Source: Nitrospirota bacterium (lineage in GTDB: Bacteria; Nitrospirota; UBA9217). Taken from it: DNA of 24,000 nt. The notes beneath the pieces were generated by a model. That model made no database searches. It had not been told where the DNA came from and saw nothing but the letters and a program-made list of their open reading frames with translations. Position 1 is the first letter of the stretch, and each line of letters begins with the position of its first letter. Both the position numbers and the translations under genes were made by a program. Shown here one piece after another: positions 3,335 through 22,620 of this stretch. Where the stretch lies: the NCBI GenBank assembly GCA_963818475.1, contig CAWFSF010000005.1, positions 555,873 through 579,872 on the forward strand, given 5' to 3'.

Positions 3335-3441
3335 CTTTGACACTGATAACGGCGGATTTATTTATGATTAAGGCGGACACGAGAAGGACGTTGACGTATC
3401 TGTGAAAATCCGATTTTTATCAGATTTGATCCGTGTCAAAG
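3335..3441. repeat. Palindromic intergenic element (E4), CGGAT-motif type
   Basis: The terminal inverted repeats are CTTTGACAC (3335-3343) and GTGTCAAAG (3433-3441). The arms are CTGATAACGGCGGATTT and AAAATCCGATTTTTATCAG. It lies in the 3' UTR between the acyl-CoA synthetase stop codon and its terminator. Confidence 0.65.
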
Positions 3442-3474
3442 ACTTCTTTCGGTTTCGGTCCTCCGAAGATCCGT

Positions 3475-5009
3475 TCAGCCGTGATGCTTCATTTCCGTGG
3501 CGAGATACAGTTTCCGGATCTCTTTCTTCAGGATCTTGCCTGTTGCGGTCCGCGGCAGCTCGTCGATCATCAGGAAGCGGCGCGGGATCTTATAGTGGGC
3601 CACATGCTCGGAAAGGAACTCGCGGAATTCTCTGGGCGTCGCCTGGCTGCCCGTCCTTCTGTACGACGTACATGATCGGGATCTCTTTGTCCTCGCCGTG
3701 CAGTACGCCGATCATGGCGCAGTCCTTGACCGCGCTGTGGCGGTACAGCACTTCTTCGACCTCGAAGGGGTAGACATTCAGGCCGTCGACGATGATCATG
3801 TCCTTTTTCCGGTCGATGATCTTGATATACCCGTCCTCATCGAGCGCTGCGATGTCGCCCGTAGAGAGCCAGTTGTCGCGGATGGCCTTGGCGGTGTCTT
3901 CCGGCCGGTTCAGGTACCCGGTCATCACGTTCGGGCCTTTCACCAGCAGCTCGCCCGGCACGCCCGCGGCAAGGGGCTTGCCCTCATCGTCCACGACCCG
4001 CACCTCGATGCCGGGCAGCGGCAGGCCGACCGTGCCGGGCCTCCGCCTGCCATGGTCGTCGGGATTGATCGACACGACCGGCGACGCCTCGGTCAGGCCA
4101 TAACCTTCGAGCAGCGGGACCTTGAAGGCGGCTTCGAAGTCCCTGATCACCTTCACCGGCAGCGGTGCAGCGCCGGAAACGCAGAGCCGCAGGTTCAGCA
4201 GCATCTTGACCAGGAAGGGCATGTTCTTCTCCGCCAGGATCTTGTAGACCGTGGGGATCGCGACGAACAGCGTGATCCGGTCCAGGATGAGGCGCTTCAC
4301 GACGCGCGAGAAGGGCCGGACCGCCGGCAGGAGCGAGATGAGCGACCCCGTGACGAGCGGTATAACGACGCAGACGGTAAAGGTGAACGAGTGGAACAGC
4401 GGCAGAAAAACGACGAACCGGTCCTTGTGGGAAATATGGATCGCCGCGGCGCAGGCGAGCGCGTTCGCCATGATGTTCCGGTGCGTCAGGAGCGCGCCCT
4501 TGGGGCTGCCGGTGGTGCCGGACGTATAGAGAATGGTCGAGAGGTCGTCGACGCCGTGCACGGGTGCAGGCACGATCGGCATGGCCCCGCCAGCGGCGCT
4601 CGCAACGTCGCCCAGCAGGACATAGGAGCGGGAGCTTTTCCCCCTGAGCTTCTCGACGGTGCCGCTGCATTCGCGGTCGAAAAAGCAGGTCTCTGCGCCT
4701 GCATCGTTCAGGATAAAGTCGATCTCTTCATGCGTCAGGAGGTTGTTCAGCGGCAGGACAATGCCGCCTGCCCGGATGATACCAAAGTAGGCCGCCACGT
4801 AATGCGGATTGTTCTGGGAGAGGAGCGCCACCCGGTCGCCCGCGCCTCGAACCTTGTCCAAGGAGGTAGGCCGCGTAAACTCCCGCGAGCCGGTCCATCT
4901 CCTGAAAGGAGAAAGCGGCGCCTTCGAACTTGATGAAGGTCTTGCGGCCGGAGAGCCGGGCCCGTTGCTGCAGCAACTGGTCAAGGGGAAGCAGTTCCTT
5001 AATCATCAT
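3475..5009 (-). pseudogene. Long-chain acyl-CoA synthetase / AMP-dependent ligase (FadD-like), reading frame broken twice
   Basis: The AMP-binding motif is YTSGTTGSPKGALLTH and a later motif is GELLVKGPNVMTGYLNRPEDT. The true N-terminus MMIKELLPLDQLLQQRARLSGRKTFIKFEGAAFSFQEMDRLAGVYAAYLL lies in the frame of ORF 4728..5108, so there is a shift near 4860. The true C-terminus ATPREFREFLSEHVAHYKIPRRFLMIDELPRTATGKILKKEIRKLYLATEMKHHG* lies in a third frame and ends at 3475, so there is a second shift near 3640. Confidence 0.85.
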
Positions 5010-5098
5010 GGCGCGAAGTATAGCATAGTCCCCCTGTAAGGTGAAACAAAAAAGCGCAGAAACGCATTCGCCGCCCGTGCCGCAAGGCACGTAGCCCC

Positions 5099-5127
5099 TT
5101 GACATCATACAAGACTTGTTCTATCCT
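5099..5127 (+). promoter_or_regulatory. Putative sigma70 promoter of tpx
   Basis: TTGACA (5099-5104), a 17-nt spacer, then TATCCT (5122-5127), about 55 nt upstream of the tpx start. Confidence 0.5.
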
Positions 5128-5181: not shown

Positions 5182-5712
5182 ATGGAGAGAAAAGGGATCA
5201 TAACCATGAGGGGAAAAGCGTTGACCCTGATCGGGCCGGACCTGACGATCGGCGCCAAAGCGCCCGATTTCAGTGCGCTGGACAAGGACCTGCAGGAAGT
5301 AAAATTGAGCGATTATGCAGGCAAGATCAAGGTGATCAGCGTGACACCATCGCTGGATACTCCGGTCTGCGACCTGCAGGCGCGGCGGTTCAACCACGAA
5401 GCGTCCCTGCTGCCGTCGGATATCGTGGTGCTGAACATCAGCATGGACCTGCCCTTCGCCATCGCGCGGTTCTGCACCATCGCCGGGATCGAAAAGATCA
5501 TAGCGCTGTCGGACCACCGGGACGGTTCTTTCGGCGAAGCCTACGGCGTCCTGATCAAGGAGCTCCGCCTGCTCGCCCGCTCGGTCTTTATCCTGGACAA
5601 GGATGACATCGTGCGCTACCGGGAGATCGTACCGGAGCAAACCAACCATCCGGATTATGAAATGGCGCTCAAAGCGCTGGCTGCCCTGACGGGGGTGGCA
5701 AAGGCGGCGTGA
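5182..5712 (+). CDS. tpx: Thiol peroxidase (atypical 2-Cys peroxiredoxin Tpx)
   Basis: Tpx-like sequence: [48 protein letters not shown]...FCTIAGIE. I chose the start at MERKGIIT (ATG 5182), which follows a GGAGGTGG Shine-Dalgarno. Confidence 0.9.
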
Positions 5713-5987
5713 GTGCGGGCGTGCGGAAATAAAAAAAGGCAGGTTCCGCTGGTACGGAGCCTGCCTGAAGTGTGTAGCTGTGGTCCTAGAGCTTTTACGA
5801 CATTTGCCGCTTTGGGGCCTTTGGGGCTGTCAACGACATCAAAGGTCACACTCTGACCTTCGGCCAGCGACTTAAAGCCGCTGTCCTGGATGTCGGAGAA
5901 ATGGACGAACACATCTCCGCCGTCTTCCTTGGTAATGAATCCAAAGCCCTTGGCGTCATTGAACCATTTCACGGTTCCATTTGCCAT
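5655..5987 (-). CDS. CspA-family cold-shock protein; the ORF as sequenced reads through its own terminator, so a 3'-terminal frameshift is likely
   Basis: The sequence [63 protein letters not shown] carries the RNP1 motif KGFGFI and the RNP2 motif VFVHF. An AAGGAGG Shine-Dalgarno precedes ATG 5987. A normal Csp of about 66 aa would stop near 5786, where a TAG sits one base out of frame. The open frame instead continues across the terminator hairpin to 5655. Confidence 0.85.
5731..5766 (-). terminator. Rho-independent terminator of the cold-shock gene; its hairpin is shared with the convergent tpx
   Basis: A 12-bp stem AGGCAGGTTCCG / CGGAGCCTGCCT with one mismatch and the loop CTGGTA. On the minus strand it is followed by TTTTTTT (5731-5737). 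Confidence 0.75.
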
Positions 5988-6045
5988 TCCAGTCTGAACC
6001 TCCTTCTGTGAAATTTGAAGATAACGGAACTGTGGCACAAATAAA

Positions 6046-6069
6046 GCCGCAAAGAGGTGTCTTTGCGGC
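6046..6069 (-). promoter_or_regulatory. Stable hairpin in the cold-shock gene 5' leader
   Basis: On the minus strand the stem is GCCGCAAAGA-cacc-TCTTTGCGGC (10 bp), followed by TTTATTTGTG. It lies about 60 nt upstream of the csp start codon. Confidence 0.4.
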
Positions 6070-6219
6070 CTGCTGTGTAACAAAGACTTCCGAACTTCGA
6101 GACATATTTTTTCATACCGGAAAATAAAAGTCAAGAATTTTTATCTCCCGGACGGTTTGGACGAACGCCGGGCCTCTGGTGTATACTGTAAGGAAATCAC
6201 CGCATCAGGAAGGAGGATC

Positions 6220-8063
6220 ATGGCCGGAAAACGGACAGCAACCTTCGCAAGATCGGACAGACCACGTGGGACCTCACAGCCGCTGTTCAAAAACGACAGC
6301 GACCCGCTCATGGAGAAGAAGCGGAAGCGCGTTGAGAAGCAAAGCTACGCAGTTCATCAACGCCTGGAAGGACCGGACCGACTACCTGGAGGACCCGGTG
6401 GTGCTGCGCCAGGCCCTCGACCAGTACGAAGCATGGAAAGGCCGCTGCGGCACTGACGGCGACGAGGGATACTATTTCTGGCTCAGGACCCAGCAGGACC
6501 AGAACGATCCGAAGCTCAAGGCGCAGTTCAACAAGGTCGAGGCCTTCAGCAAGAAGATCGAGAACGACAGCCAGTTCTTTTATCTGCGCATCGCCCGGAT
6601 CAAGCCGGAACAGCAGCAGAAGTTCCTGCAGCACGAGTCGCTCCGGAAGTACCGCCACTTCCTGGAACGGGTCTTTGCGGAATCGCGGTTCCATCTGAGC
6701 GAACCCGAGGAAAAGATCCTGAACCTCAAGGCTTCGACGTCCTACGCCAACTGGACAAAGATGACCTCGGGCTTCCTGTCAAAAGAGGAGCGCGTCATTG
6801 TTGCCGAGGACGGGACCCGCAAACCGCGTCTCCTTTTCCGAGATCGTGGGGCTCATGAACAGCAGGACGCAAACCGGTCCGGGATGCGGCAGCCGCGGCC
6901 TTCAACGACATCCTGCACAAGCACGTGGAGGTTGCCGAGGCGGAGCTCAACTCGGTGCTCCAGAACAAGAAGATCGATGACGAGCTCCGGGGCACGTCGC
7001 GGCCCGACCAGCTGCGCCATCTGAGCGACGACATCGAGAGCGAGGTCGTGGACACGCTGATCGATTCCGTCTCGAGCCGGTTTACGATATCCTCCCGGTA
7101 CTACGCGCTCAAGGCAAAACTGCTGAAGATCAAAAAGCTCAAGTACCACGAACGGAACGTCGAGTACGGCGAAGTGGCAAAGAAGTACCCCTATCGCACG
7201 GCCGCTGAACCTCGTCCACTCCGTCATGAACAAGCTCGACCCGCAGTTCGGCAGGATCTTCGCCGGGTTCATCGAACACGGCCAGATCGACGCGCTCCCC
7301 AAAAAAGGCAAGGACAGCGGCGCGTTCTGCATCCACCATCTCATGACCCAGCCCACCTACATCCTGCTGAACCACACCGGCACGCTGCACGATGTGCTGA
7401 CCATCGCGCACGAACTGGGTCACGGCATCAACAACGAACTGATCCGTGAAAAGCAGCATGCCCTCGATTTCGGCACCCCGACCTCGACCGCCGAGGTGGC
7501 CAGCACCTTCATGGAGGACTTCGTGCTGGACGAGATCCTGCACACGGCCGACGACGAGCTGCGGCTTGCCATCATGATGCAGAAACTGAACGACGACGTC
7601 TCGTCCATCTTCAGGCAGGTGGCCTGCTATCGCTTCGAGCAGGAGCTGCACCGGGAATACCGCAAGCGGGGATATCTGTCCAAGGAGGAGATCGGGGCGC
7701 TCTTCAGCAAGCACATGGAAGCCTACATGGGACCTGCGGTGGAGCAGTCGGCCGGCGCCGAGAACTGGTGGGTCTACTGGAGCCACATCCGCTACTTCTT
7801 CTACGTCTATTCCTATGCAAGCGGACTTTTGATCTCCAAGTCGCTCCAGGCCGGGGTGAAGAAGGACCCGGCATACATCACGAAGGTAAAGGGTTTTCTT
7901 TCAGCAGGGCTGTCGGACTCCCCGAAGAACATCTTTCTGAAGCTCGGCGTTGACATCGCGGACAGACGAGTTCTGGGACCGGGGGCTGGATCAGGTGGAA
8001 AAGCTGTTGAATGAGACAGAGGCGCTGGCGAAGAAGATGGGGAAGATAAAGGCAGGCCGCTAG
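6220..8063 (+). pseudogene. pepF: M3B-family oligoendopeptidase F (PepF), fragmented by about 7 frameshifts
   Basis: The zinc motif HELGH is present in TIAHELGHGINNEL. PepF-like segments occur in all three plus frames. In order they are: MAGK.., then NLRKIGQTTWDLT, then PLFKNDSDPLMEKKRK, then FINAWKDRTDYLEDPVVLRQALDQYE...EPEEKILNLKASTSYANW, then VSFSEIVGLMNS, then RDAAAAAFNDILHKHVEVAEAEL...YHERNVEYGEVAKKYPY, then MNKLDPQFGRIFAGFIEHGQIDALPKKGKDSGAFC...SPKNIFLKLGVDIAD, then FWDRGLDQVEKLLNETEALAKKMGKIKAGR*. The total span of about 614 codons fits PepF. Confidence 0.9.
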
Positions 8064-8100
8064 GGCGGGCGTATCGGCAAACGCATGACCTTTAAAAAAG

Positions 8101-8242
8101 CATTTGGACACTGATAAAATCGGATAAGAGGCGGATAACGGCGGATTTTTCTTTGACGCGAGGTTCACCCATTAGGTGAGTGCTTTTGCTTTAGAATTTA
8201 TCCGTGTAAATCAGATATTAATCCGCCTCTTCCGTGTCCAGG
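8101..8242. repeat. Palindromic MITE/REP-like intergenic element (E5)
   Basis: By eye it is about 80% identical over its full length to the copy at 12120-12257. The termini are CATTTGGACAC and CCGTGTCCA. The arms hold tandem (C)GGATAA / TTATCCG units. A central hairpin TCACC-catta-GGTGA is present. Confidence 0.75.
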
Positions 8243-8904: not shown

Positions 8905-10164
8905 CTACAACTCCCAGGGATAACCAATAAATATGCTCGGCGACACGCCTTCCCTGCCTGTCGCCACGTCGGCCCGAAACACGACGCCCGAGGCCGTGAC
9001 CATGCGCAGGCCTATGCCGGTTGTCGAGCGCCAGATGTCGCCCACCTCGCTCCGCAGGTCAGCAGTGCTCCCGAGCTCGTAGTAGAACGCAATCTGCCAG
9101 GCAGTTCTGATGTCTTTCATGATGAAAATATCGTAGGGCGTTGACTCGTCGGTCAGGTTCCACCGGATCTCCGTGCCGTAGAAGCGCGTGTGAGCGCCGG
9201 AGTAGCGGCCATTGGAATAGGACCTGAGACGGCTGAACCCACCGAGCGAACTGGCCGTGCCGTAGGTGTTGTTTGCGACCGTGTTTTTGACGACGTCATG
9301 GCAGCGCTGCCGCTCCGTAAGGTCGGCAATGGTATCGCAGGCAAGCCCCAGATCCGTTTCTACGTCAACAGGATTGATCTCCCCCTGTCGCCTGACATGG
9401 GCATCGGAGTGAAAATAGTTTAACGCCCAGGTACTGCGCCTGCCGAGTGGAACATAGCCGGTGAAGCTCATATCCTGAACATAAAAATCAGGCCCGGAGT
9501 CCCTGGGTGGGGTCAGTGACCGGCTGATGTCGAGCCGCACACCGCGCCGAGGGTCCGCGTAATCGTCGGTGAGGTCGACACGGGTGCCCAGAATCGTAAC
9601 ATGCCCCCGGTCCACCTGCGAGCTCTGGGTCTCAATAATAATGTTGCCGTCCCTGTTACGGATACTTTTTACCTGCGACCTTCCCTGGTAATAGGCGCCG
9701 TAGAGCTCAAACCTGCGTTCGAGAAACGTTGCAGTCATGCGCGAACCATAGTAGGTCATGTCGCCCAGTTCGATATTCGAATAATCGTTTTTGTCCGTGT
9801 TCATTCCCCGCTGGCTGTAGCTCTGGATCGTCGCCGAACTGATGCTGCTGAAACCGGTGTCGAGGAGCAGGGTATCCGGAATGACATGCACCTCTGCAAC
9901 GCCCAGGGCCAGACCAACGATATCTCCGCCAAAGGCCATGCCATAGGCATCGGCGTGCGTGCCTGCAAAGTTTCTGGCGCCCCCGACAAGGCCCAGCCCT
10001 GTCCCGATGCCGGGCAAGCTGTAGGGATAGGGAAAGAGCGCGTAGCCGAAATCGGTTGCGAATTGATCTTTACGGCGATCAGGGAAGATGGATGCTTCGG
10101 CCATACTGCCGAGGACGAGCGCAAGGACCACAAAAAACAAAAATCTCCGTACCTTTTTTTCCAT
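8905..10164 (-). CDS. Omp85/BamA-family outer-membrane beta-barrel (surface antigen D15 type) without recognisable POTRA domains
   Basis: The signal peptide is MEKKVRRFLFFVVLALVLGSMAEA. Omp85-like C-terminal motifs are SLGGFSRLRSYSNGRYSGAHTRFYGTEIRW and GIGLRMVTASGVVFRADVA. I chose the start at ATG 10164. The longer ORF start at 10227 lies inside repeat E7. Confidence 0.75.
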   Translation of the reverse strand: MEKKVRRFLFFVVLALVLGSMAEASIFPDRRKDQFATDFGYALFPYPYSLPGIGTGLGLVGGARNFAGTHADAYGMAFGGDIVGLALGVAEVHVIPDTLLLDTGFSSISSATIQSYSQRGMNTDKNDYSNIELGDMTYYGSRMTATFLERRFELYGAYYQGRSQVKSIRNRDGNIIIETQSSQVDRGHVTILGTRVDLTDDYADPRRGVRLDISRSLTPPRDSGPDFYVQDMSFTGYVPLGRRSTWALNYFHSDAHVRRQGEINPVDVETDLGLACDTIADLTERQRCHDVVKNTVANNTYGTASSLGGFSRLRSYSNGRYSGAHTRFYGTEIRWNLTDESTPYDIFIMKDIRTAWQIAFYYELGSTADLRSEVGDIWRSTTGIGLRMVTASGVVFRADVATGREGVSPSIFIGYPWEL

Positions 10165-10205
10165 CCCCCCACCTTCTTCGGATATACCGGGCTTTATTCT
10201 ATCAA

Positions 10206-10321
10206 CCACAAAATGCACAAAAATCACATAAAAAACAAGCGTACGCTTTTTTGAAATACCGCACCGGCGTGATGAAAGCTAAAATCGCGATTTATCTGTG
10301 TGACTTTTGTGCTTTCTGTGG
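10206..10321. repeat. Palindromic intergenic element (E7), CACAAAA-motif variant
   Basis: The arm CCACAAAATGCACAAAAATCACATAAA and the arm TTTATCTGTGTGACTTTTGTGCTTTCTGTGG are imperfect inverted repeats of about 27 bp. A central perfect palindrome AAGCGTACGCTT (10237-10248) is flanked by A and T runs. It may double as the terminator of hgcB. Confidence 0.6.
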
Positions 10322-10336
10322 CTAACCGCTGTAGGT

Positions 10337-10630
10337 TTATCCGCAGCAGCTGTTCCCCGTCCCGCTGCAATCACAGGACGGCGCGCCGCCGTAGATAAGG
10401 CTGTTGATGATGGCAGCGGCGCACCCCACGCCCGTACTCACCGTGATTGCGCCGAATTCGCAGTTTTTTGCGCAGGCGCCGCACTCCATGCAGCGGTCGC
10501 GGTCGGTGATGCTGGCGCGCTTGTCCTGCATGGCGAACACTGCGTGCGGACAGACCTCGACGCACCTGCCGCAGCCCGTGCATTTGTCGGAGAAAAACTG
10601 CAATGTCGATACGTTCGCGAGATATTTCAT
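10337..10630 (-). CDS. hgcB: Mercury-methylation ferredoxin HgcB (2x[4Fe-4S])
   Basis: There are two CX2CX2CX3C motifs, CTGCGRCVEVCP and CMECGACAKNCE. The conserved extra Cys is in GVGCAAAI, and the C-terminal vicinal pair is in ..NSCCG. The gene lies directly downstream of hgcA (12-nt gap, GGGAGG Shine-Dalgarno). I chose the start at MKYLANV (ATG 10630). Confidence 0.9.
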   Translation of the reverse strand: MKYLANVSTLQFFSDKCTGCGRCVEVCPHAVFAMQDKRASITDRDRCMECGACAKNCEFGAITVSTGVGCAAAIINSLIYGGAPSCDCSGTGNSCCG

Positions 10631-10642
10631 AGGACCTCCCAC

Positions 10643-11708
10643 TCACGGAGTTTGAACAAGCACCACCAGCAGCAGCGAAACCACCGTGATTATTATATAC
10701 AGCGGAATGCCGATCTTCAACTCTTTATTCACGCCGGACATGCCGGTGTAGGTGGTCGAGCCGGTGAACTGGAGCGCAATGTATGAGCTCAGGGCCGGAA
10801 AAAACAGGTAGATTGCTGCGAGCAGAAAGCGCGCTTTGTCCGGGAACGCCGGCCATTGCCTGCATGGTCAGAAACGTTATGAGCATGCCCATGATCCAGC
10901 CCTTGATCGCAAAGGAGCGGAAGGGAACGAAGGGCAGCAGGACCGGCGTCACGAAGGCGCCGGCAAACACCGCTGAAAGACCGAGCGCGAGGAACGGCAT
11001 GCCTCCCTGCCAGGCCTGCTTGAACAGAATTCCCGTTGGCGCAAGCCCGAAGAGCAGAAGCACGACTCCGGCGAACCAGGGATATTTCTTCATGATCGGA
11101 TTGATCTCCATGGGCGTAAGCACCAGCCGGTCGAGCAAAGAAAACCTGATCTCGCTCATTTCCTTCGTCTTTTTGTACCCTGCTGCAACATATGCCGGGA
11201 TGTCCCGCGCTTCCACCGGGCCGAAGGAGACCCGGAACCCTGTTTCCTTCTGGACTTTGGCTGCAGAGACGCCCACGGCCCCGAGCTGCGGCAGAATGAT
11301 GCGGCGGTGGCCGACCACGTCGCTGAGGCGGACAAGGCTGATCTGCCTGACCAGCTCGTCGGTCCCGAAGGTGCCCTTCCCTGCCGCGCACCAGACATTG
11401 ATGCTCTTCGTGTCGAGCACCAGGACCCAGGCATGCATTCCCTTGAGCGATTTCCGGACGATGTCGAAGCTCAGCTTGTAGTTCGCGGTCACAAAGACGT
11501 CGGAATCCTTTGTAGCTTCGCCCACGGCATAGAGCCCGGGCGGTACCGTGTAATGCATGCGATAGGCGCCGATACGGCTTTTGATCATGCCGAGCACATC
11601 GGCCTGCGACCAGTCGGACGAGACCCGCGAGACCGCACCTCCAGGAGTTTTAACACTGCCCGACACCCAGTGCGGGATCTCTTTTTTTATGAATGGAATG
11701 ATCTCCAT
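10643..11708 (-). CDS. hgcA: Mercury-methylation corrinoid protein HgcA; one frameshift in the C-terminal transmembrane domain
   Basis: The diagnostic cap-helix motif NVWCAAGK is at 11376-11399 (Cys107), followed by hydrophobic TM helices. The intact ORF is 10725..11708. After a shift near 10835-10845 a second frame continues with RFLLAAIYLFFPALSSYIALQFTGSTTYTGMSGVNKELKIGIPLYIIITVVSLLLVVLVQTP* and ends at 10643, just before the hgcB Shine-Dalgarno. Confidence 0.9.
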
Positions 11709-11722
11709 AAGGTCCTCCGATG

Positions 11723-12001
11723 CTACAGGATGTCCTTCATTACGGGCCCCAGCACCCCTTTGACCATCACTTCAAGGTTCTCCGCCTTGATCAGGGCGAT
11801 GCAGCAGATCTCGCCGTCCTTTTCCCAGCTCGTAACAGCGAACTTGTCGCCCGCCTTGATGCCCGCCCGGGCACGCAACTCCTTCGGCAGCACCATCTGC
11901 CCCCGTTCGTCGACCGTAATGATCGCCTCGACAGCGCAGCACCCGGCGCGCTTGTTCAGCGCGGTCTTTCCTGATCCTTTATCCTTCGCCGCCAGCACCA
12001 T
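11723..12001 (-). CDS. Small AbrB/MazE/SpoVT-type DNA-binding-domain protein with two vicinal Cys-Cys pairs, first gene of the hgc operon
   Basis: The SpoVT-AbrB signature is ITVDERGQMVLPKELRARAGIKAGDKFAV. The CC pairs are in RAGCCAVEA and GEICCIAL. I chose the start at MVLAAKDK (ATG 12001) because AAGGAGG lies 5 nt upstream. An alternative in-frame ATG is at 12025. The stop is 14 nt before the hgcA start, with a GGAGGA Shine-Dalgarno in between. Confidence 0.8.
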   Translation of the reverse strand: MVLAAKDKGSGKTALNKRAGCCAVEAIITVDERGQMVLPKELRARAGIKAGDKFAVTSWEKDGEICCIALIKAENLEVMVKGVLGPVMKDIL

Positions 12002-12048
12002 ACCCGCCTCCTTCTGCACGTCCATATCAGCACAATCTGATAAGTAAG

Positions 12049-12077
12049 AATATACTGATTTGTCCGTATTTTGTCAA
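12049..12077 (-). promoter_or_regulatory. Near-consensus sigma70 promoter of the AbrB-like-hgcA-hgcB operon
   Basis: The minus strand reads TTGACA (12072-12077), a 17-nt spacer, then TATATT (12049-12054). The short leader contains the inverted repeat ATCAG-attgtg-CTGAT (about 12026-12041), a possible operator. Confidence 0.6.
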
Positions 12078-12119
12078 GGGCAAATTCTTGATTCGCCGGG
12101 AGATGCTTTATCCTTAAAA

Positions 12120-12257
12120 CATTTGGACACGGATTAACACGGATAAGAGCCGGATAACGGCGGATTATTTCTTTTATAAGATGTTCACCCAATAGGTGAA
12201 TGCTTTAGAATTTATCCGCGTTAATCAGATGTTTCCGATTCTTCCGTGTCCAAATGC
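12120..12257. repeat. Palindromic MITE/REP-like intergenic element (E8)
   Basis: The terminal inverted repeats are a perfect 13 bp: CATTTGGACACGG (12120-12132) and CCGTGTCCAAATG (12245-12257). The arms hold tandem CGGATAA / TTATCCG units. The central hairpin is TTCACC-caata-GGTGAA. It is a close paralogue of the 8101-8242 copy. Confidence 0.8.
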
Positions 12258-12556
12258 CGTTTTTAGGTTTATCCGGCAGCGGTCGTCGCAAGCTCTCTGG
12301 GGCCAGAAGAAGGAAAGCCGATTCGGTTTTCTCTTTTATAATGCCCGACTCGTAGCGCAACTTCAGAATGAGTATAGTTTTGTGAAGGCAGCGGAAAACG
12401 AAAATCAAGGTATGGGACAGACGGGAGAGCGGCATCCGCCGGGATGTGGCGACCAAAAATCCGACGAAGCGGCGGCAAGAGTGTTTTCAGGGAGCCAATC
12501 GTGCCGGTAATGAGGGTGGATTGTCAACCCCGAACATTGTTAAAACAGCAGTGTCC

Positions 12557-13765
12557 TTACCGGTCCCTATGGATAGCATCATAGGGCTCTCGTTGGATGC
12601 TCTTTACCGCCGGATAGAGGACTGCCGCAGCGCCCGAGAGCAGCATGAGCAGAAAGCAGGCGAGGCCGATCGTCCCGATCATCGCGTACGATGGCCACAG
12701 GAACTGGATATTGCCCAGATAGACGATGATCTGCTGCTTGAACTTGACAATGAAGATCCATGCCAGGCCGATGCCCGCGGCCCCGCCGGTTCCCGTTAGC
12801 AGTACCGCCTCGGTAACGAGCAGCCGGAGCACGTGCATCCTGGTGGCGCCCATTGCCCGCAGAATGCCGAGTTCCCGTTCCCGCTCGTTCACGGTCATGG
12901 CGAACACCAGCCCCATCATGATCAGCAGCATAAACCAGAAGATCACGCCCACGGCAAAAACGCCCCAAAGCGCAGACGAGACGTCCTTGCGCACAGCAAT
13001 AATGAAGTCCTTGGTGACGATCGCTTTAAGATCAGGCAAGGCTGCCTCTATCGACCGGCCCACCGCATGGATGTCGTAAGCCGGAGCAACGCGCACCAGG
13101 ACCGACGATATCTGCCTACTGTTAACATTGAGAGGAACCCGCAATATCGTCTTCGAGTGCTCGATCATATCGCCGGCCGCGTCGATAGTCATGAAGACGG
13201 AACGATCCAGCAAGCCAAGGCCTGTGGGATGTAGTACCGCACCGATCCGGAATTGCTTGCCATAATACATCATTTCCTTGCTAGTTACATAGGCGAGGCT
13301 CGAGCCGATCGTCACGGGATCGTCGTTTTCATTTCCTTTGCGCGGACTAATGGCAGACCGAATCCAGGGCGATATGGTAAAATCCGTATCAGGGTCGTAT
13401 CCCACGAGGAGCGTCAGGGGAGTGCCGCAGCAAGCAAGCCTCGCTGAAGTCATAAAGAGTTGAGGTGACGCCTTGGCGACCCCTTGCACAGCAGCGACGG
13501 CAGCGAGATTCTTTCGGTCCATGTAAAAACTTGTCGGTTCCCCGGCAAGCAGGATTTTCCGGCTTGCAGCCACATGCGCGGCGGGTACGACCATAATGTC
13601 AGCGCCAAGCCGCTCCATGCCGAGCTCAACACTCCCCTCAACCGCTTTCAGGACCGTTGTGGCGCTGAAGAAGAATCCACTGGCGAGGGCGGCTGCAAAA
13701 ATGATGGCTATGCTTCTGACGCGCTTACGGAGAAGATTTTTCAAGGCTAATTTACATAGTGTCAT
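12557..13765 (-). CDS. FtsX/MacB-type ABC transporter permease (4 TM, large periplasmic domain); no ATPase gene adjacent
   Basis: The N-terminus LALKNLLRKRVRSIAIIFAAALASGFFF is typical of FtsX-like permeases. A periplasmic stretch of about 230 aa follows, and then a C-terminal three-TM FtsX module containing ERERELGILRAMGATRMHVLRLLVTEAVLL. I chose the start at MTLCKLAL (ATG 13765). Confidence 0.85.
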   Translation of the reverse strand: MTLCKLALKNLLRKRVRSIAIIFAAALASGFFFSATTVLKAVEGSVELGMERLGADIMVVPAAHVAASRKILLAGEPTSFYMDRKNLAAVAAVQGVAKASPQLFMTSARLACCGTPLTLLVGYDPDTDFTISPWIRSAISPRKGNENDDPVTIGSSLAYVTSKEMMYYGKQFRIGAVLHPTGLGLLDRSVFMTIDAAGDMIEHSKTILRVPLNVNSRQISSVLVRVAPAYDIHAVGRSIEAALPDLKAIVTKDFIIAVRKDVSSALWGVFAVGVIFWFMLLIMMGLVFAMTVNERERELGILRAMGATRMHVLRLLVTEAVLLTGTGGAAGIGLAWIFIVKFKQQIIVYLGNIQFLWPSYAMIGTIGLACFLLMLLSGAAAVLYPAVKSIQREPYDAIHRDR

Positions 13766-22374: not shown

Positions 22375-22461
22375 TATCCGCAGATTTCGCTGATTTCACC
22401 GATTAAAACAGGCCAGACTTGTGTTTCTAAGATCTGCGGACATCTGAGAAATCTGCGGATA
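22375..22461. repeat. Palindromic intergenic element (E10)
   Basis: The left arm TATCCGCAGATTTCGCTGATTTCACCGATT pairs with the right arm AAGATCTGCGGACATCTGAGAAATCTGCGGATA. The outermost 14 bp are perfectly inverted. Confidence 0.65.
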
Positions 22462-22620
22462 AAAAGTTTTTTCTTCTGCTCTGTGCGGCTGAATCTTCTT
22501 TTTTTAGATTCCTGTGTTAACAATTCGCCTCCCCCGCCGTTGCAGCTCCTTCAAACGTGATAAAATAAGAATGAGAACGATCGTCCCTCAGGGATGATCG
22601 TGATCAGGATGGAGGAAACC

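What the first reader, a model, noticed from the sequence alone, without database searches (positions are those of the whole stretch)
10337..12077. hgcAB mercury-methylation pair in a three-gene operon led by an uncharacterised AbrB-type gene
- **Seen, hgcA:** it has the cap-helix signature NVWCAAGK and a C-terminal TM domain.
- **Seen, hgcB:** it has two CX2CX2CX3C clusters, the extra Cys in GVGCA, and a terminal CC.
- **Seen, operon layout:** the gaps are 14 nt (AbrB-like to hgcA) and 12 nt (hgcA to hgcB), each with a strong Shine-Dalgarno.
- **Seen, promoter:** a TTGACA-17-TATATT promoter sits just upstream of the first gene.
- **Established:** hgcA and hgcB are the genetically required pair for Hg(II) methylation in Pseudodesulfovibrio mercurii ND132 and Geobacter sulfurreducens. 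An ArsR-type regulator has been linked to hgcAB in some strains.
- **Inference:** here the promoter-proximal partner is an AbrB/SpoVT-fold protein instead, which suggests a different regulatory or accessory arrangement.
Basis: partly seen in the sequence, partly recalled or inferred. Interest (0 to 1): 0.8.

Follow-up and report, generated by a model that had tools for sequence, protein, structure and literature searches.

The report
Known hgcCAB mercury-methylation operon, frameshifted
This is a mercury-methylation gene cluster (hgcA, hgcB) from a Nitrospirota bacterium, led by a small AbrB-type gene that databases already name HgcC; the cluster is of a known kind and its hgcA frame is broken here (probably an assembly error), but about 100 related loci suggest HgcC is a cysteine-bearing repressor that also sits in front of arsenic-methylation genes.

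Summary
The gene identifications hold. Curated NCBIfam models score HgcA at 339 bits (cut-off 275), HgcB at 126 (99) and the AbrB-like gene at 118 (70). The motifs, the 14-nt and 12-nt gaps with Shine-Dalgarno sites, and the TTGACA-17-TATATT promoter are all present.

There are two corrections.
- **hgcA is not one ORF here.** An extra T (minus strand, 10828-10826) shifts the frame. The ORF stops at 10725 and loses the last two membrane helices. Removing one T restores a 354-aa HgcA (399 bits). At least five more frameshifts split three other genes in the window, so assembly error is the likeliest cause.
- **The AbrB gene is not unrecognised.** It belongs to NF040962, "HgcAB-associated protein HgcC", and was published in 2023 as a putative antitoxin upstream of hgcA.

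What I could not find in the literature searched:
- HgcC-like genes carry a conserved array of 9-bp TCWGA repeats over their own -10 box.
- They keep invariant cysteines (C22, C66, C67).
- In a metagenome sample they precede arsM (48 loci) more often than hgcA (21 loci).

The best reading is an autoregulating repressor that may sense thiophilic metal(loid)s. It is not an antitoxin. The locus is ordinary; the reinterpretation of HgcC is moderately interesting.

The parts
12072..12077 (-). -35 hexamer TTGACA of the hgcC promoter
   Evidence: 11/12 match with a 17-nt spacer. A TTGAC lies within 40 nt upstream of the repeat array in 72 of 87 homologous loci.
12049..12054 (-). -10 hexamer TATATT
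   Evidence: It lies between repeat units 1 and 2 of the array.
12026..12059 (.). Putative HgcC operator. Four 9-bp-period units of the quasi-palindromic core TCWGA, centred at 12056 (TCAGT), 12047 (TCTTA, degenerate), 12038 (TCAGA) and 12029 (GCTGA, degenerate). The array overlaps the -10 box and the likely transcription start.
   Evidence: Sequence. The pattern matches on both strands at 12027-12058. Across 99 homologous loci, TCWG core spacings of 9, 18, 27 and 36 nt occur 102, 98, 29 and 21 times, against about 0.3 in shuffles for the spacings checked (9, 18, 27). Of 39 arrays of three or more exact units in 840 kb, 36 lie within 130 nt upstream of an hgcC-like gene.
11723..12001 (-). hgcC (92 aa from ATG 12001; the alternative upstream ATG 12025 gives 100 aa). 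An AbrB/SpoVT-type protein with cysteine pairs C21-C22 and C66-C67.
   Evidence: NF040962 118.3 bits (cut-off 70), TIGR01439 39.7 bits, PF04014 30.4 bits. Foldseek top hits are SpoVT and AbrB. Invariant residues.
11713..11718 (-). Shine-Dalgarno GGAGGA for hgcA, in the 14-nt hgcC-hgcA gap
   Evidence: Sequence.
10827..11708 (-). hgcA, 5' segment (codons 1-294). Holds the corrinoid-binding domain with the cap-helix NVWCAAGK and the first membrane helices.
   Evidence: NF040863 339.3 bits, profile 1-259. Motif at residue 104.
10826..10828 (-). Frameshift site. A run of three T (minus strand) where relatives have one base fewer: CTT-T-CTG against CTC-TTG in L001.
   Evidence: DNA alignment A1, three-frame translation, GC3 phase switch near 10780-10800.
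10643..10825 (-). hgcA, 3' segment in the +1 frame (60 codons plus a TGA stop). Holds the last two membrane helices and the FTGSTTYTGMSGV motif.
   Evidence: The tail alone hits NF040863 profile 268-322 at E 3.9e-15. The repaired 354-aa protein scores 399.4 bits over profile 1-322/325. Hydrophobic segments.
10725..10727 (-). Premature stop that ends the hgcA ORF as the sequence stands (327 aa)
   Evidence: The same 327-aa product is on record from the source assembly (P0012).
10635..10640 (-). Shine-Dalgarno GGGAGG for hgcB
   Evidence: Sequence.
10337..10630 (-). hgcB (97 aa), a 2x[4Fe-4S] ferredoxin with an extra Cys and a C-terminal CC
   Evidence: NF040864 126.4 bits (cut-off 99). Motifs.
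10692..10720 (-). Promoter-like match TTGAAG-17-TATAAT inside the 3' end of hgcA. It is a possible internal promoter for hgcB, or chance.
   Evidence: 10/12. Consensus match only.

Best explanation
The locus is a Nitrospirota hgcC-hgcA-hgcB transcription unit driven by one sigma-70-type promoter (12077..12049).

- **hgcA and hgcB** encode the corrinoid protein and the ferredoxin of Hg(II) methylation. Family membership is shown; activity is inferred.
- **hgcC** encodes a small AbrB/SpoVT-fold DNA-binding protein. It most likely represses its own promoter by binding, as an oligomer, to an array of 9-bp-spaced TCWGA units that covers the -10 box and the transcription start (12059..12026). This is inferred from a cis-element conserved in about 90 loci.
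- **The signal.** HgcC's invariant cysteines (C22, C66, C67, usually also C21) are proposed to bind a thiophilic metal(loid) such as As(III) or Hg(II) and release the repressor. This would parallel ArsR control of hgcAB in P. mercurii ND132. It is speculative, and rests on the cysteine pattern and on the family's equally tight linkage to arsM.
- **The frameshift.** The single-base frameshift in hgcA at 10826-10828 is most likely an assembly error rather than a real pseudogene.

My probabilities for each step: operon and gene identities about 0.9; HgcC as autoregulatory DNA binder about 0.65; metal(loid)-thiol sensing about 0.35; frameshift as artefact about 0.75.
For: **Identities**
- NF040863, NF040864 and NF040962 all score above their curated cut-offs.
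- Repaired HgcA scores 399 bits at full profile length.

**Operon**
- The promoter matches 11 of 12 positions, and no terminator-like site lies on the minus strand within 10000-12600.
- The gaps are 14 and 12 nt with Shine-Dalgarno sites.
- Called genes in relatives show the same order, with a 361-362-aa HgcA and a 97-aa HgcB.

**DNA-binding fold**
- TIGR01439 scores 39.7 bits.
- Foldseek top hits are SpoVT 2w1t, AbrB and Sso7c4-type proteins.
- A profile search of the PDB finds AbrB-family regulators, SpoVT and AbrB at E 4e-4 to 0.07.

**Operator**
- TCWG cores in the 100 nt upstream of hgcC-like genes are spaced at 9, 18, 27 and 36 nt 102, 98, 29 and 21 times. Shuffles give about 0.3 for the spacings checked (9, 18, 27).
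- The unit consensus is WWW-TCWGA-W. Arrays of 2-7 units occur in 87 of 99 loci, equally for hgcA-linked and arsM-linked genes.
- 36 of the 39 arrays of three or more exact units found in 840 kb lie within 130 nt upstream of hgcC.
- The -10 hexamer sits inside the array.

**Cysteines**
- C22, C66 and C67 are invariant in 119 close homologues and in both context groups.

**arsM link**
- Of 73 usable metagenome loci, 48 have arsM immediately downstream and 21 have hgcA. The arsM genes score NF008823 at 352-359 bits against a cut-off of 263.
- The median gap to arsM is about 15 nt.
- The two arsM-linked copies tested score 125-127 bits on NF040962.

**Artefact**
- The extra base lies in a T-run.
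- Every relative listed above 79% identity is 359-362 aa apart from two that appear truncated; most of the list is 356-367 aa.
- Three other genes in the same 24 kb are split across frames: an M3 oligoendopeptidase in three ORFs (profile 19-184, 223-314, 321-567), an acyl-CoA ligase in three pieces, and a TIGR00375 protein in two or more.
- The source contig is 797 kb.
Against: - No experiment bears on HgcC. The 2023 and 2026 papers read treat it as an antitoxin-like gene.
- In this window only 2 of the 4 repeat units are perfect.
- A 9-bp period is shorter than a helical turn, and I know of no precedent for it.
- The AF2 model is only moderate (pLDDT 69.8), and C21/C22 lie in the low-confidence part. 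Whether the cysteines converge could not be tested.
- In more divergent family representatives the cysteines are common but not universal: C22 in 110 of 150, C66 in 115 of 150, C67 in 129 of 150.
- In many relatives the hgcC-hgcA distance is 100-350 nt, which leaves room for a separate hgcA promoter.
- A promoter-like site lies inside hgcA upstream of hgcB.
- The frameshift is present in the public assembly (P0012), and I could not inspect reads, so a real pseudogene is not excluded.
Confidence: 0.6

Rival explanations
1. HgcC is the antitoxin (PrlF/MazE type) of a type II toxin-antitoxin module that has captured hgcAB, as proposed by Zhang et al. 2023.
For: PF04014 MazE_antitoxin scores 30.4 bits against a cut-off of 24.7. 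Source databases label many homologues 'antitoxin PrlF'. The published interpretation is in PMC10349881.
Against: No toxin gene is present. hgcC is followed after 14 nt by hgcA and preceded by its promoter and a repeat element. In about 90 related loci the downstream gene is hgcA or arsM, never a MazF/YhaV-type toxin. PF04014 covers the whole swapped-hairpin superfamily, and the closest solved relatives are DNA-binding regulators.
Confidence: 0.04
2. HgcC is not primarily a regulator. It is an accessory metal(loid)-handling protein (a thiol metallochaperone) that delivers Hg(II) or As(III) to the methylating enzymes, and is translated together with them.
For: The cysteines come as vicinal pairs, like the C-terminal CC of HgcB seen here and the vicinal cysteine pairs of the ArsD metallochaperone (own knowledge). 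The gene is tightly coupled to hgcA (14 nt here) and to arsM (median about 15 nt). It is linked to two chemically different methylation enzymes that share only the type of substrate.
Against: The AbrB DNA-binding core is conserved: D31, R33, G34, Q35, P39 and R43 are near-invariant even in divergent members. A family-specific repeat array lies exactly over its own promoter, and a pure chaperone would not need one. A dual role is not excluded.
Confidence: 0.15
3. The hgcA frameshift is real. This organism carries an hgcA pseudogene, or a truncated 327-aa protein lacking the last two membrane helices, and does not methylate mercury.
For: The frameshift is in the deposited assembly, where the 327-aa product P0012 matches the repaired protein at 100% identity over 83% of its length. 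No read data could be inspected.
Against: At least five further frameshifts split three unrelated genes within the same 24 kb. That fits systematic indel error better than parallel decay. hgcC, hgcB and the remainder of hgcA show no other lesions, and the out-of-frame tail is still 55 of 55 alignable to the HgcA profile.
Confidence: 0.2
4. The frameshift is decoded by programmed +1 ribosomal frameshifting at CUU-U, as in prfB.
For: The site reads CUU UCU. A +1 slip of tRNA-Leu from CUU to UUU would restore the frame. This is the slippery codon of the RF2 frameshift site (own knowledge).
Against: There is no in-frame stop or obvious hungry codon after CUU, and no Shine-Dalgarno-like stimulator upstream. 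No listed relative of comparable identity has a 327-aa product ending at this point; near-full-length relatives are 356-367 aa. Other genes in the window are frameshifted at unrelated sequences.
Confidence: 0.01

Closest known systems
HgcA/HgcB of Pseudodesulfovibrio mercurii ND132 and Geobacter sulfurreducens (NCBIfam NF040863 and NF040864)
   Same: The HMM scores exceed the equivalog cut-offs. The cap-helix NVWCAAGK, the C-terminal membrane domain, the two CX2CX2CX3C motifs, the extra Cys and the terminal CC are all present, and hgcB lies directly downstream.
   Different: hgcA is interrupted by a 1-nt insertion in this sequence. The host is a Nitrospirota bacterium: the best relative is 88% identical, from MAG GWC2_56_14. 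The upstream partner is HgcC rather than ArsR.
NCBIfam NF040962 'HgcAB-associated protein HgcC', which is the abrB/prlF/mazE-like 'TA gene' upstream of hgcA in Zhang et al. 2023 (PMC10349881)
   Same: It scores 118 bits against a cut-off of 70. It lies directly upstream of hgcA on the same strand and has an AbrB/SpoVT domain.
   Different: That paper stressed archaea and a toxin-antitoxin reading. Here the host is bacterial and no toxin is present. The family also precedes arsM, carries invariant cysteines, and has a conserved repeat array at its promoter. I found none of these points in the literature searched.
ArsR-like regulator co-transcribed with hgcAB (Gionfriddo et al. 2023, as cited in PMC10349881 and PMC13362967)
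   Same: A small promoter-proximal gene sits ahead of hgcAB, there is a link to arsenic genes, and cysteine-based metalloid sensing is the presumed logic. In my sample ArsR (16 of 77) and HgcC (20 of 77) occupy the same position in different genomes.
   Different: The fold is unrelated: a swapped-hairpin AbrB domain against a winged helix. The operator is different. Regulation by HgcC is untested.
AbrB, SpoVT, MraZ and Sso7c4 swapped-hairpin DNA-binding proteins
   Same: The fold matches. Binding of oligomers to several short repeats spread over a few helical turns is known for MraZ, which binds direct repeats at its own promoter (own knowledge).
   Different: HgcC has the cysteine pairs, a conserved C-terminal two-helix tail (residues 73-91) and a 9-bp repeat period.
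ArsR and ArsD As(III) sites and the MerR Hg(II) site (three-cysteine coordination; own knowledge)
   Same: There are three invariant cysteines, two of them vicinal, and the gene is associated with As and Hg genes.
   Different: There is no sequence or fold relationship, and metal binding by HgcC is untested.

Membership tests
HgcA (NF040863) | Profile HMM score above the curated cut-off (275 bits) | tested here: met
   339.3 bits for the ORF as it stands; 399.4 bits after removing one T.
HgcA (NF040863) | Cap-helix motif N(V/I)WCA(A/G)GK with the Co-ligating Cys | tested here: met
   NVWCAAGK at residues 104-111.
HgcA (NF040863) | A complete C-terminal membrane domain in one reading frame | tested here: not met
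   As the sequence stands, the ORF covers profile 1-259/325 and stops at 10725. The last two hydrophobic segments are in the +1 frame. The feature is met only after a 1-nt correction.
HgcA (NF040863) | Hg(II) methylation activity | not testable with these tools
   Needs culture or heterologous assays.
HgcB (NF040864) | Profile score above the cut-off (99 bits), two CX2CX2CX3C motifs, a conserved extra Cys and a C-terminal CC | tested here: met
   126.4 bits over profile 1-93/93. Motifs at residues 17 and 47, GVGCA at 67, ending NSCCG.
HgcC (NF040962) | Profile score above the cut-off (70 bits) | tested here: met
   118.3 bits over profile 1-70/70.
HgcC (NF040962) | Located directly upstream of hgcAB on the same strand | tested here: met
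   14-nt gap. The same holds in 20 of 77 loci of the closest HgcA relatives. The family name is too narrow: 48 of 73 metagenome loci have arsM downstream instead.
AbrB/SpoVT swapped-hairpin DNA-binding domain | Domain HMM and fold | tested here: met
   TIGR01439 39.7 bits against 28.3. Foldseek top hits are SpoVT and AbrB with probability 0.96-1.0 but E only 0.02-0.09 for this small domain. A PDB profile search gives E 4e-4.
AbrB/SpoVT swapped-hairpin DNA-binding domain | Sequence-specific DNA binding | not testable with these tools
   Supported indirectly by the family-specific repeat array at its own promoter.
Type II toxin-antitoxin antitoxin (MazE/PrlF) | Adjacent cognate toxin gene | tested here: not met
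   No toxin ORF adjoins hgcC here or in about 100 related loci. The neighbours are hgcA or arsM.
Type II toxin-antitoxin antitoxin (MazE/PrlF) | PF04014 domain | tested here: met
   30.4 bits against 24.7. The Pfam family spans the whole AbrB/MazE superfamily, so this does not discriminate.
ArsR-led hgcAB operon | ArsR/SmtB (PF01022) gene upstream of hgcA | tested here: not met
   The upstream gene is HgcC. No ArsR-family hit was found among the window ORFs scanned.

The most novel reading that the evidence does not exclude
HgcC defines a previously undescribed class of thiol-based metal(loid)-responsive repressors built on the AbrB swapped-hairpin fold. It binds a 9-bp-period TCWGA repeat array over its own -10 box and is released by As(III), Hg(II) or a related thiophile through a C22/C66/C67 site. 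Closely related paralogues of one regulator family control both mercury methylation (hgcAB) and arsenic methylation (arsM). This would place hgcAB within a metal(loid)-response regulon rather than a toxin-antitoxin module.
Probability: 0.35. Interest if true: 0.65.

Novelty: new member of a known kind. Interest (0 to 1): 0.42.

Why it matters
What controls hgcAB expression, and what the native role of mercury methylation is, remain open questions (see the introduction of PMC10349881). So far only ArsR has experimental support as a regulator.

This locus adds nothing new about hgcAB itself. The comparative data do give a concrete, testable model for the second common upstream partner:
- a defined operator sequence;
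- three candidate ligand-binding cysteines;
- a shared link to arsM, which strengthens the arsenic-mercury connection already suggested by ArsR.

There is also a practical point for surveys. hgcA in error-prone assemblies can be called as a truncated 327-aa protein, and a gene annotated 'HgcAB-associated' is not a reliable marker of hgcAB.

Tried and rejected
- **Exact-sequence look-ups.** Look-ups of HgcB (97 aa) and of P0012 found no contig on record, so the source record and its reads could not be inspected. The cluster look-up showed only that P0012 comes from a single NCBI/ENA contig of 797,034 bp.
- **Rfam.** A scan of the window at gathering thresholds found no riboswitch or other RNA near hgc. 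I had looked for a cobalamin riboswitch. The only hit was a cspA thermoregulator elsewhere.
- **Literature.** 'hgcC' with 'hgcA' returned only an unrelated medical paper. 'HgcAB-associated' and 'arsenite methyltransferase' with 'AbrB' returned nothing. The three papers that mention both 'arsM' and 'AbrB' did not, from their titles and abstracts, concern this link; I did not open the two I had not already read.
- **Toxin-antitoxin reading.** Rejected because no toxin partner exists.
- **Programmed +1 frameshift.** Rejected for lack of stimulators and of conservation.
- **Cysteine geometry.** The AF2 monomer (pLDDT 69.8, residues 1-22 below 50) could not show whether the cysteines cluster. A dimer could not be submitted.
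- **Other pattern matches in the window.** The three-unit TCWG pattern with one mismatch gave six matches against 0.66 expected. Two are the operator. Three of the other four lie in coding sequence and all four have GC-rich spacers, so I treat them as codon-periodicity noise, not sites. The match at 22381-22402 belongs to a different intergenic repeat.
- **Sampling limits.** The proportions of arsM-linked and hgcA-linked loci come from the best 80 of 403 confirmed pattern matches, and the HgcA sample is the 80 closest relatives of at least 594. They are not population estimates.
Full report
**1. What is in the sequence**

All three genes lie on the minus strand.

- **hgcB** runs 10630..10337 and encodes 97 aa. 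It has two CX2CX2CX3C motifs, the extra Cys in GVGCA and the ending NSCCG. The curated NCBIfam equivalog model NF040864 scores 126.4 bits against a cut-off of 99, over the whole profile.
- **hgcA** starts at 11708 and carries NVWCAAGK at residue 104. NF040863 scores 339.3 bits against a cut-off of 275. Pfam sees only the related CdhD corrinoid domain.
- **The AbrB-like ORF** (12025..11723) hits TIGR01439 (AbrB family, 39.7 bits) and PF04014. Its best hit is NF040962, 'HgcAB-associated protein HgcC', at 118.3 bits against a cut-off of 70.
- **Promoter and gaps.** The scan finds TTGACA-17-TATATT at 12077..12049 (11/12), the best match in the region, and no terminator-like site on the coding strand. 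The 14-nt hgcC-hgcA gap holds GGAGGA, and the 12 nt before hgcB hold GGGAGG.

**2.

The span 11708..10643 is 1066 nt, which is not a multiple of three. The ORF from 11708 stops at 10727..10725 (327 aa) and covers only HgcA profile positions 1-259 of 325. The rest of the protein is in the +1 frame down to 10643. It reads LLAAIYLFFPALSSYIALQFTGSTTYTGMSGVNKELKIGIPLYIIITVVSLLLVVLVQTP.

- Aligning the DNA with the closest genome relative pins the lesion to one extra base in a T-run. That relative is L001, Nitrospirae MAG GWC2_56_14, 88% identical in protein. The window reads CTT-T-CTG at 10829..10823.
- Deleting one T gives a 354-aa protein that scores 399.4 bits over profile 1-322/325. The out-of-frame tail alone matches profile 268-322 at E 3.9e-15.
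- As it stands, the product would lack the last two hydrophobic segments.
- Most listed relatives are 356-367 aa. The 327-aa product is on record once (P0012), from an NCBI/ENA contig of 797,034 bp.

**3. Artefact or pseudogene?**

Other genes in the same 24 kb are broken in the same way.

- An M3-family oligoendopeptidase (TIGR02290) is split into three overlapping ORFs in different frames. They cover profile 19-184, 223-314 and 321-567.
- A long-chain acyl-CoA ligase has its N-terminus (4728..5108), core (3590..4984, profile 57-482 of 531) and C-terminal YKIPRR...TGKI motif (3475..3603) in three frames.
- A TIGR00375 protein is split between 20484..21095 and 19897..20646.
- A GC3 phase plot shows the corresponding phase switches.

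That makes six or more frameshifts in 24 kb, on a very long contig. Indel error in a long-read assembly is the most economical explanation (about 0.75), but I could not look at reads. Programmed +1 frameshifting at CUU-U is formally possible. It has no stimulatory elements and is not conserved.

**4. The AbrB-type gene is already known as a neighbour of hgcAB**

Besides the NCBIfam model, Zhang et al. 2023 (PMC10349881) reported a gene annotated abrB (COG2002), prlF or mazE (PF04014) directly upstream of hgcA. They found it in 14 hgcAB-bearing contigs (about 39% by their count) and in 8 of 31 confirmed methylators, 6 of them archaeal. They suggested a toxin-antitoxin type of regulation as the archaeal counterpart of bacterial arsR. 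A 2026 paper repeats that reading (PMC13362967).

My own tabulation covers the 80 closest HgcA relatives in GTDB representative genomes, mostly Nitrospirota, Spirochaetota, Bacteroidales and Bacillota.

| Immediate 5' neighbour of hgcA | Loci (of 77 usable) |
|---|---|
| HgcC, same strand | 20 |
| ArsR (PF01022) | 16 |
| LMW-phosphatase/ArsC-like | 5 |
| MarR | 4-5 |
| DsbD_2 | 3 |
| ArsP | 1 |
| ACR3-like SBF | 1 |

Close relatives show the same called gene order, with a 361-362-aa HgcA and a 97-aa HgcB.

**5. What the comparative data add**

*(a) The family is compact and very conserved.* The word-indexed search gives 2166 hits, the best 120 of which are mostly 88-94 aa. The exhaustive search of 1.84 billion representatives gives 322 clusters at E<=1e-10.

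- C22, C66 and C67 are invariant in 119 close homologues. So is the AbrB core: D31, R33, G34, Q35, P39 and R43.
- C21 is present in 47 of 48 arsM-linked and 24 of 42 hgcA-linked members. Half of the arsM-linked members have a third CC pair near the N-terminus.
- Among the 150 best 50%-identity representatives the cysteines are frequent but not universal.

*(b) The reciprocal test.* I fetched 80 metagenome loci with the HgcC alignment.

- 73 have at least 300 nt downstream. Of these, 48 have an arsenite methyltransferase gene immediately downstream, 21 have hgcA and 4 have something else.
- The arsM genes score NF008823 at 352-359 bits against a cut-off of 263, with a median distance of about 15 nt.
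- After clustering at 95% identity there are 46 arsM-only and 37 hgcA-only clusters.
- The nearest neighbour carries the same label in 89 of 90 cases. The two groups are therefore coherent sister subfamilies, 66% identical on average.
- Both arsM-linked proteins tested score above the window's protein on NF040962, at 125-127 bits. The curated name is therefore too narrow.

*(c) A conserved cis-element.* In the 100 nt upstream of hgcC-like genes, TCWG cores are spaced almost exclusively by 9, 18, 27 or 36 nt.

- Those spacings occur 102, 98, 29 and 21 times. Mononucleotide shuffles give about 0.3 for the spacings checked (9, 18, 27).
- The unit consensus is WWW-TCWGA-W. Arrays have 2-7 units, with 3 the most common, and occur in 87 of 99 loci, equally in both context groups.
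- In 840 kb of fetched loci there are only 39 arrays with three or more exact units. 36 of them lie within 130 nt upstream of an hgcC-like start, and a 37th (L153) is probably one as well. None lies in the ArsR-led hgcA loci.
- A TTGAC lies within 40 nt upstream of the array in 72 of 87 loci. The -10 hexamer sits between units 1 and 2.
- In the window the array spans 12059..12026, with units centred at 12056, 12047, 12038 and 12029. Two units are perfect and two have one mismatch. It covers ATG 12025. That, together with the AGGAGG before ATG 12001, argues for the 92-aa start.

**6. Mechanism**

- *Shown:* family memberships, gene order, the promoter consensus, the conserved repeat array, the conserved cysteines, and the dual linkage to hgcA and arsM.
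- *Inferred (about 0.65):* HgcC is a DNA-binding autoregulator. It occupies the TCWGA array and occludes the -10 box and start site of the promoter that also drives hgcAB. The fold evidence fits DNA-binding members of the superfamily (SpoVT, AbrB, Sso7c4-type).
- *Speculative (about 0.35):* the three or four cysteines form a thiophilic metal(loid) site. As(III) or Hg(II) would relieve repression, as in ArsR-controlled hgcAB.

The toxin-antitoxin reading fails its key test, because there is no toxin gene here or in about 100 related loci. A chaperone role (about 0.15) is not excluded and could coexist with regulation.

**7. Verdict**

The interpretation that the partner is novel and uncharacterised is overstated, because the association is both curated and published.

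The locus is a new member of a known kind, from a Nitrospirota MAG. The moderately interesting residue is the reinterpretation of HgcC. I did not find the operator, the cysteine triad or the arsM linkage in the open literature searched.

Noticed in passing
window 6179-8014 (+), 3475-5108 (-), 19897-21095 (-): Three other genes are split by frameshifts: an M3 oligoendopeptidase in three ORFs, a long-chain acyl-CoA ligase in three pieces, and a TIGR00375-family protein in two or three. This points to a high indel error rate in the source assembly, or less likely to widespread pseudogenisation.
   Followed up: partly
L088, L094-L100, L099:2950-4101, L142:2938-4111 and 40 further metagenome loci: Proteins that score above the cut-off on the 'HgcAB-associated protein HgcC' model sit about 15 nt upstream of arsenite methyltransferase genes (arsM, NF008823), with no hgcA within 3 kb. 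They carry the same TCWGA repeat array at their promoter.
   Followed up: yes
window 12116-12256; 8082-8219; partial copy 3336-3448: A dispersed intergenic repeat of about 140 bp, 87-91% identical between copies, with terminal inverted repeats CATTTGGACAC...GTGTCCAAATG (REP- or MITE-like). One copy abuts the hgcC promoter.
   Followed up: partly
window 19772-19806 and 22375-22472: A second short intergenic repeat (ATCTGCGGATAAAA...) forms a 23-nt inverted repeat at 22375-22397 / 22439-22461, upstream of the ORF at 22594. One of the chance-level TCWG pattern matches falls inside it.
   Followed up: no
window 5735-6145 (-): An Rfam cspA thermoregulator hit (RF01766, 79.1 bits against a gathering score of 78) overlaps a cold-shock-domain gene (CSD at residues 52-114 of ORF 5655-6134).
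   Followed up: no
window 13949-16204 (-): A 751-aa ORF with no Pfam hit contains an internal tandem duplication of about 980 nt (75-94% identity between halves). It is Gly-rich with a lipoprotein-like N-terminus.
   Followed up: no
window 8905-10227 (-): An ORF of about 420-440 aa directly downstream of hgcB is conserved in that position in L001. Relatives L161-L166 have an Omp85-like gene (weak PF01103) downstream of hgcB. This is a conserved neighbour of unknown relation to hgcAB.
   Followed up: partly
window 10692-10720 (-): A promoter-like TTGAAG-17-TATAAT (10/12) lies inside the 3' end of hgcA, 60 nt upstream of hgcB. It could give hgcB its own transcript, or it could be a by-product of the coding sequence ELKIGIPLYIII.
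   Followed up: no
L146:403-1567 (also L145, L148): A few HgcC-like genes precede neither hgcA nor arsM. Instead they precede a small Cys/His-rich ORF (138 aa) and a protein of about 196 aa that I did not scan against any family library.
   Followed up: no
window 10643-10660 compared with L001:4460-4500: The extreme C-terminus of HgcA differs by a second 1-nt indel between the window (…VVLVQTP*) and L001 (…VVLFKLREWEVL*, which overlaps the hgcB start). The tail is evidently free to vary.
   Followed up: partly
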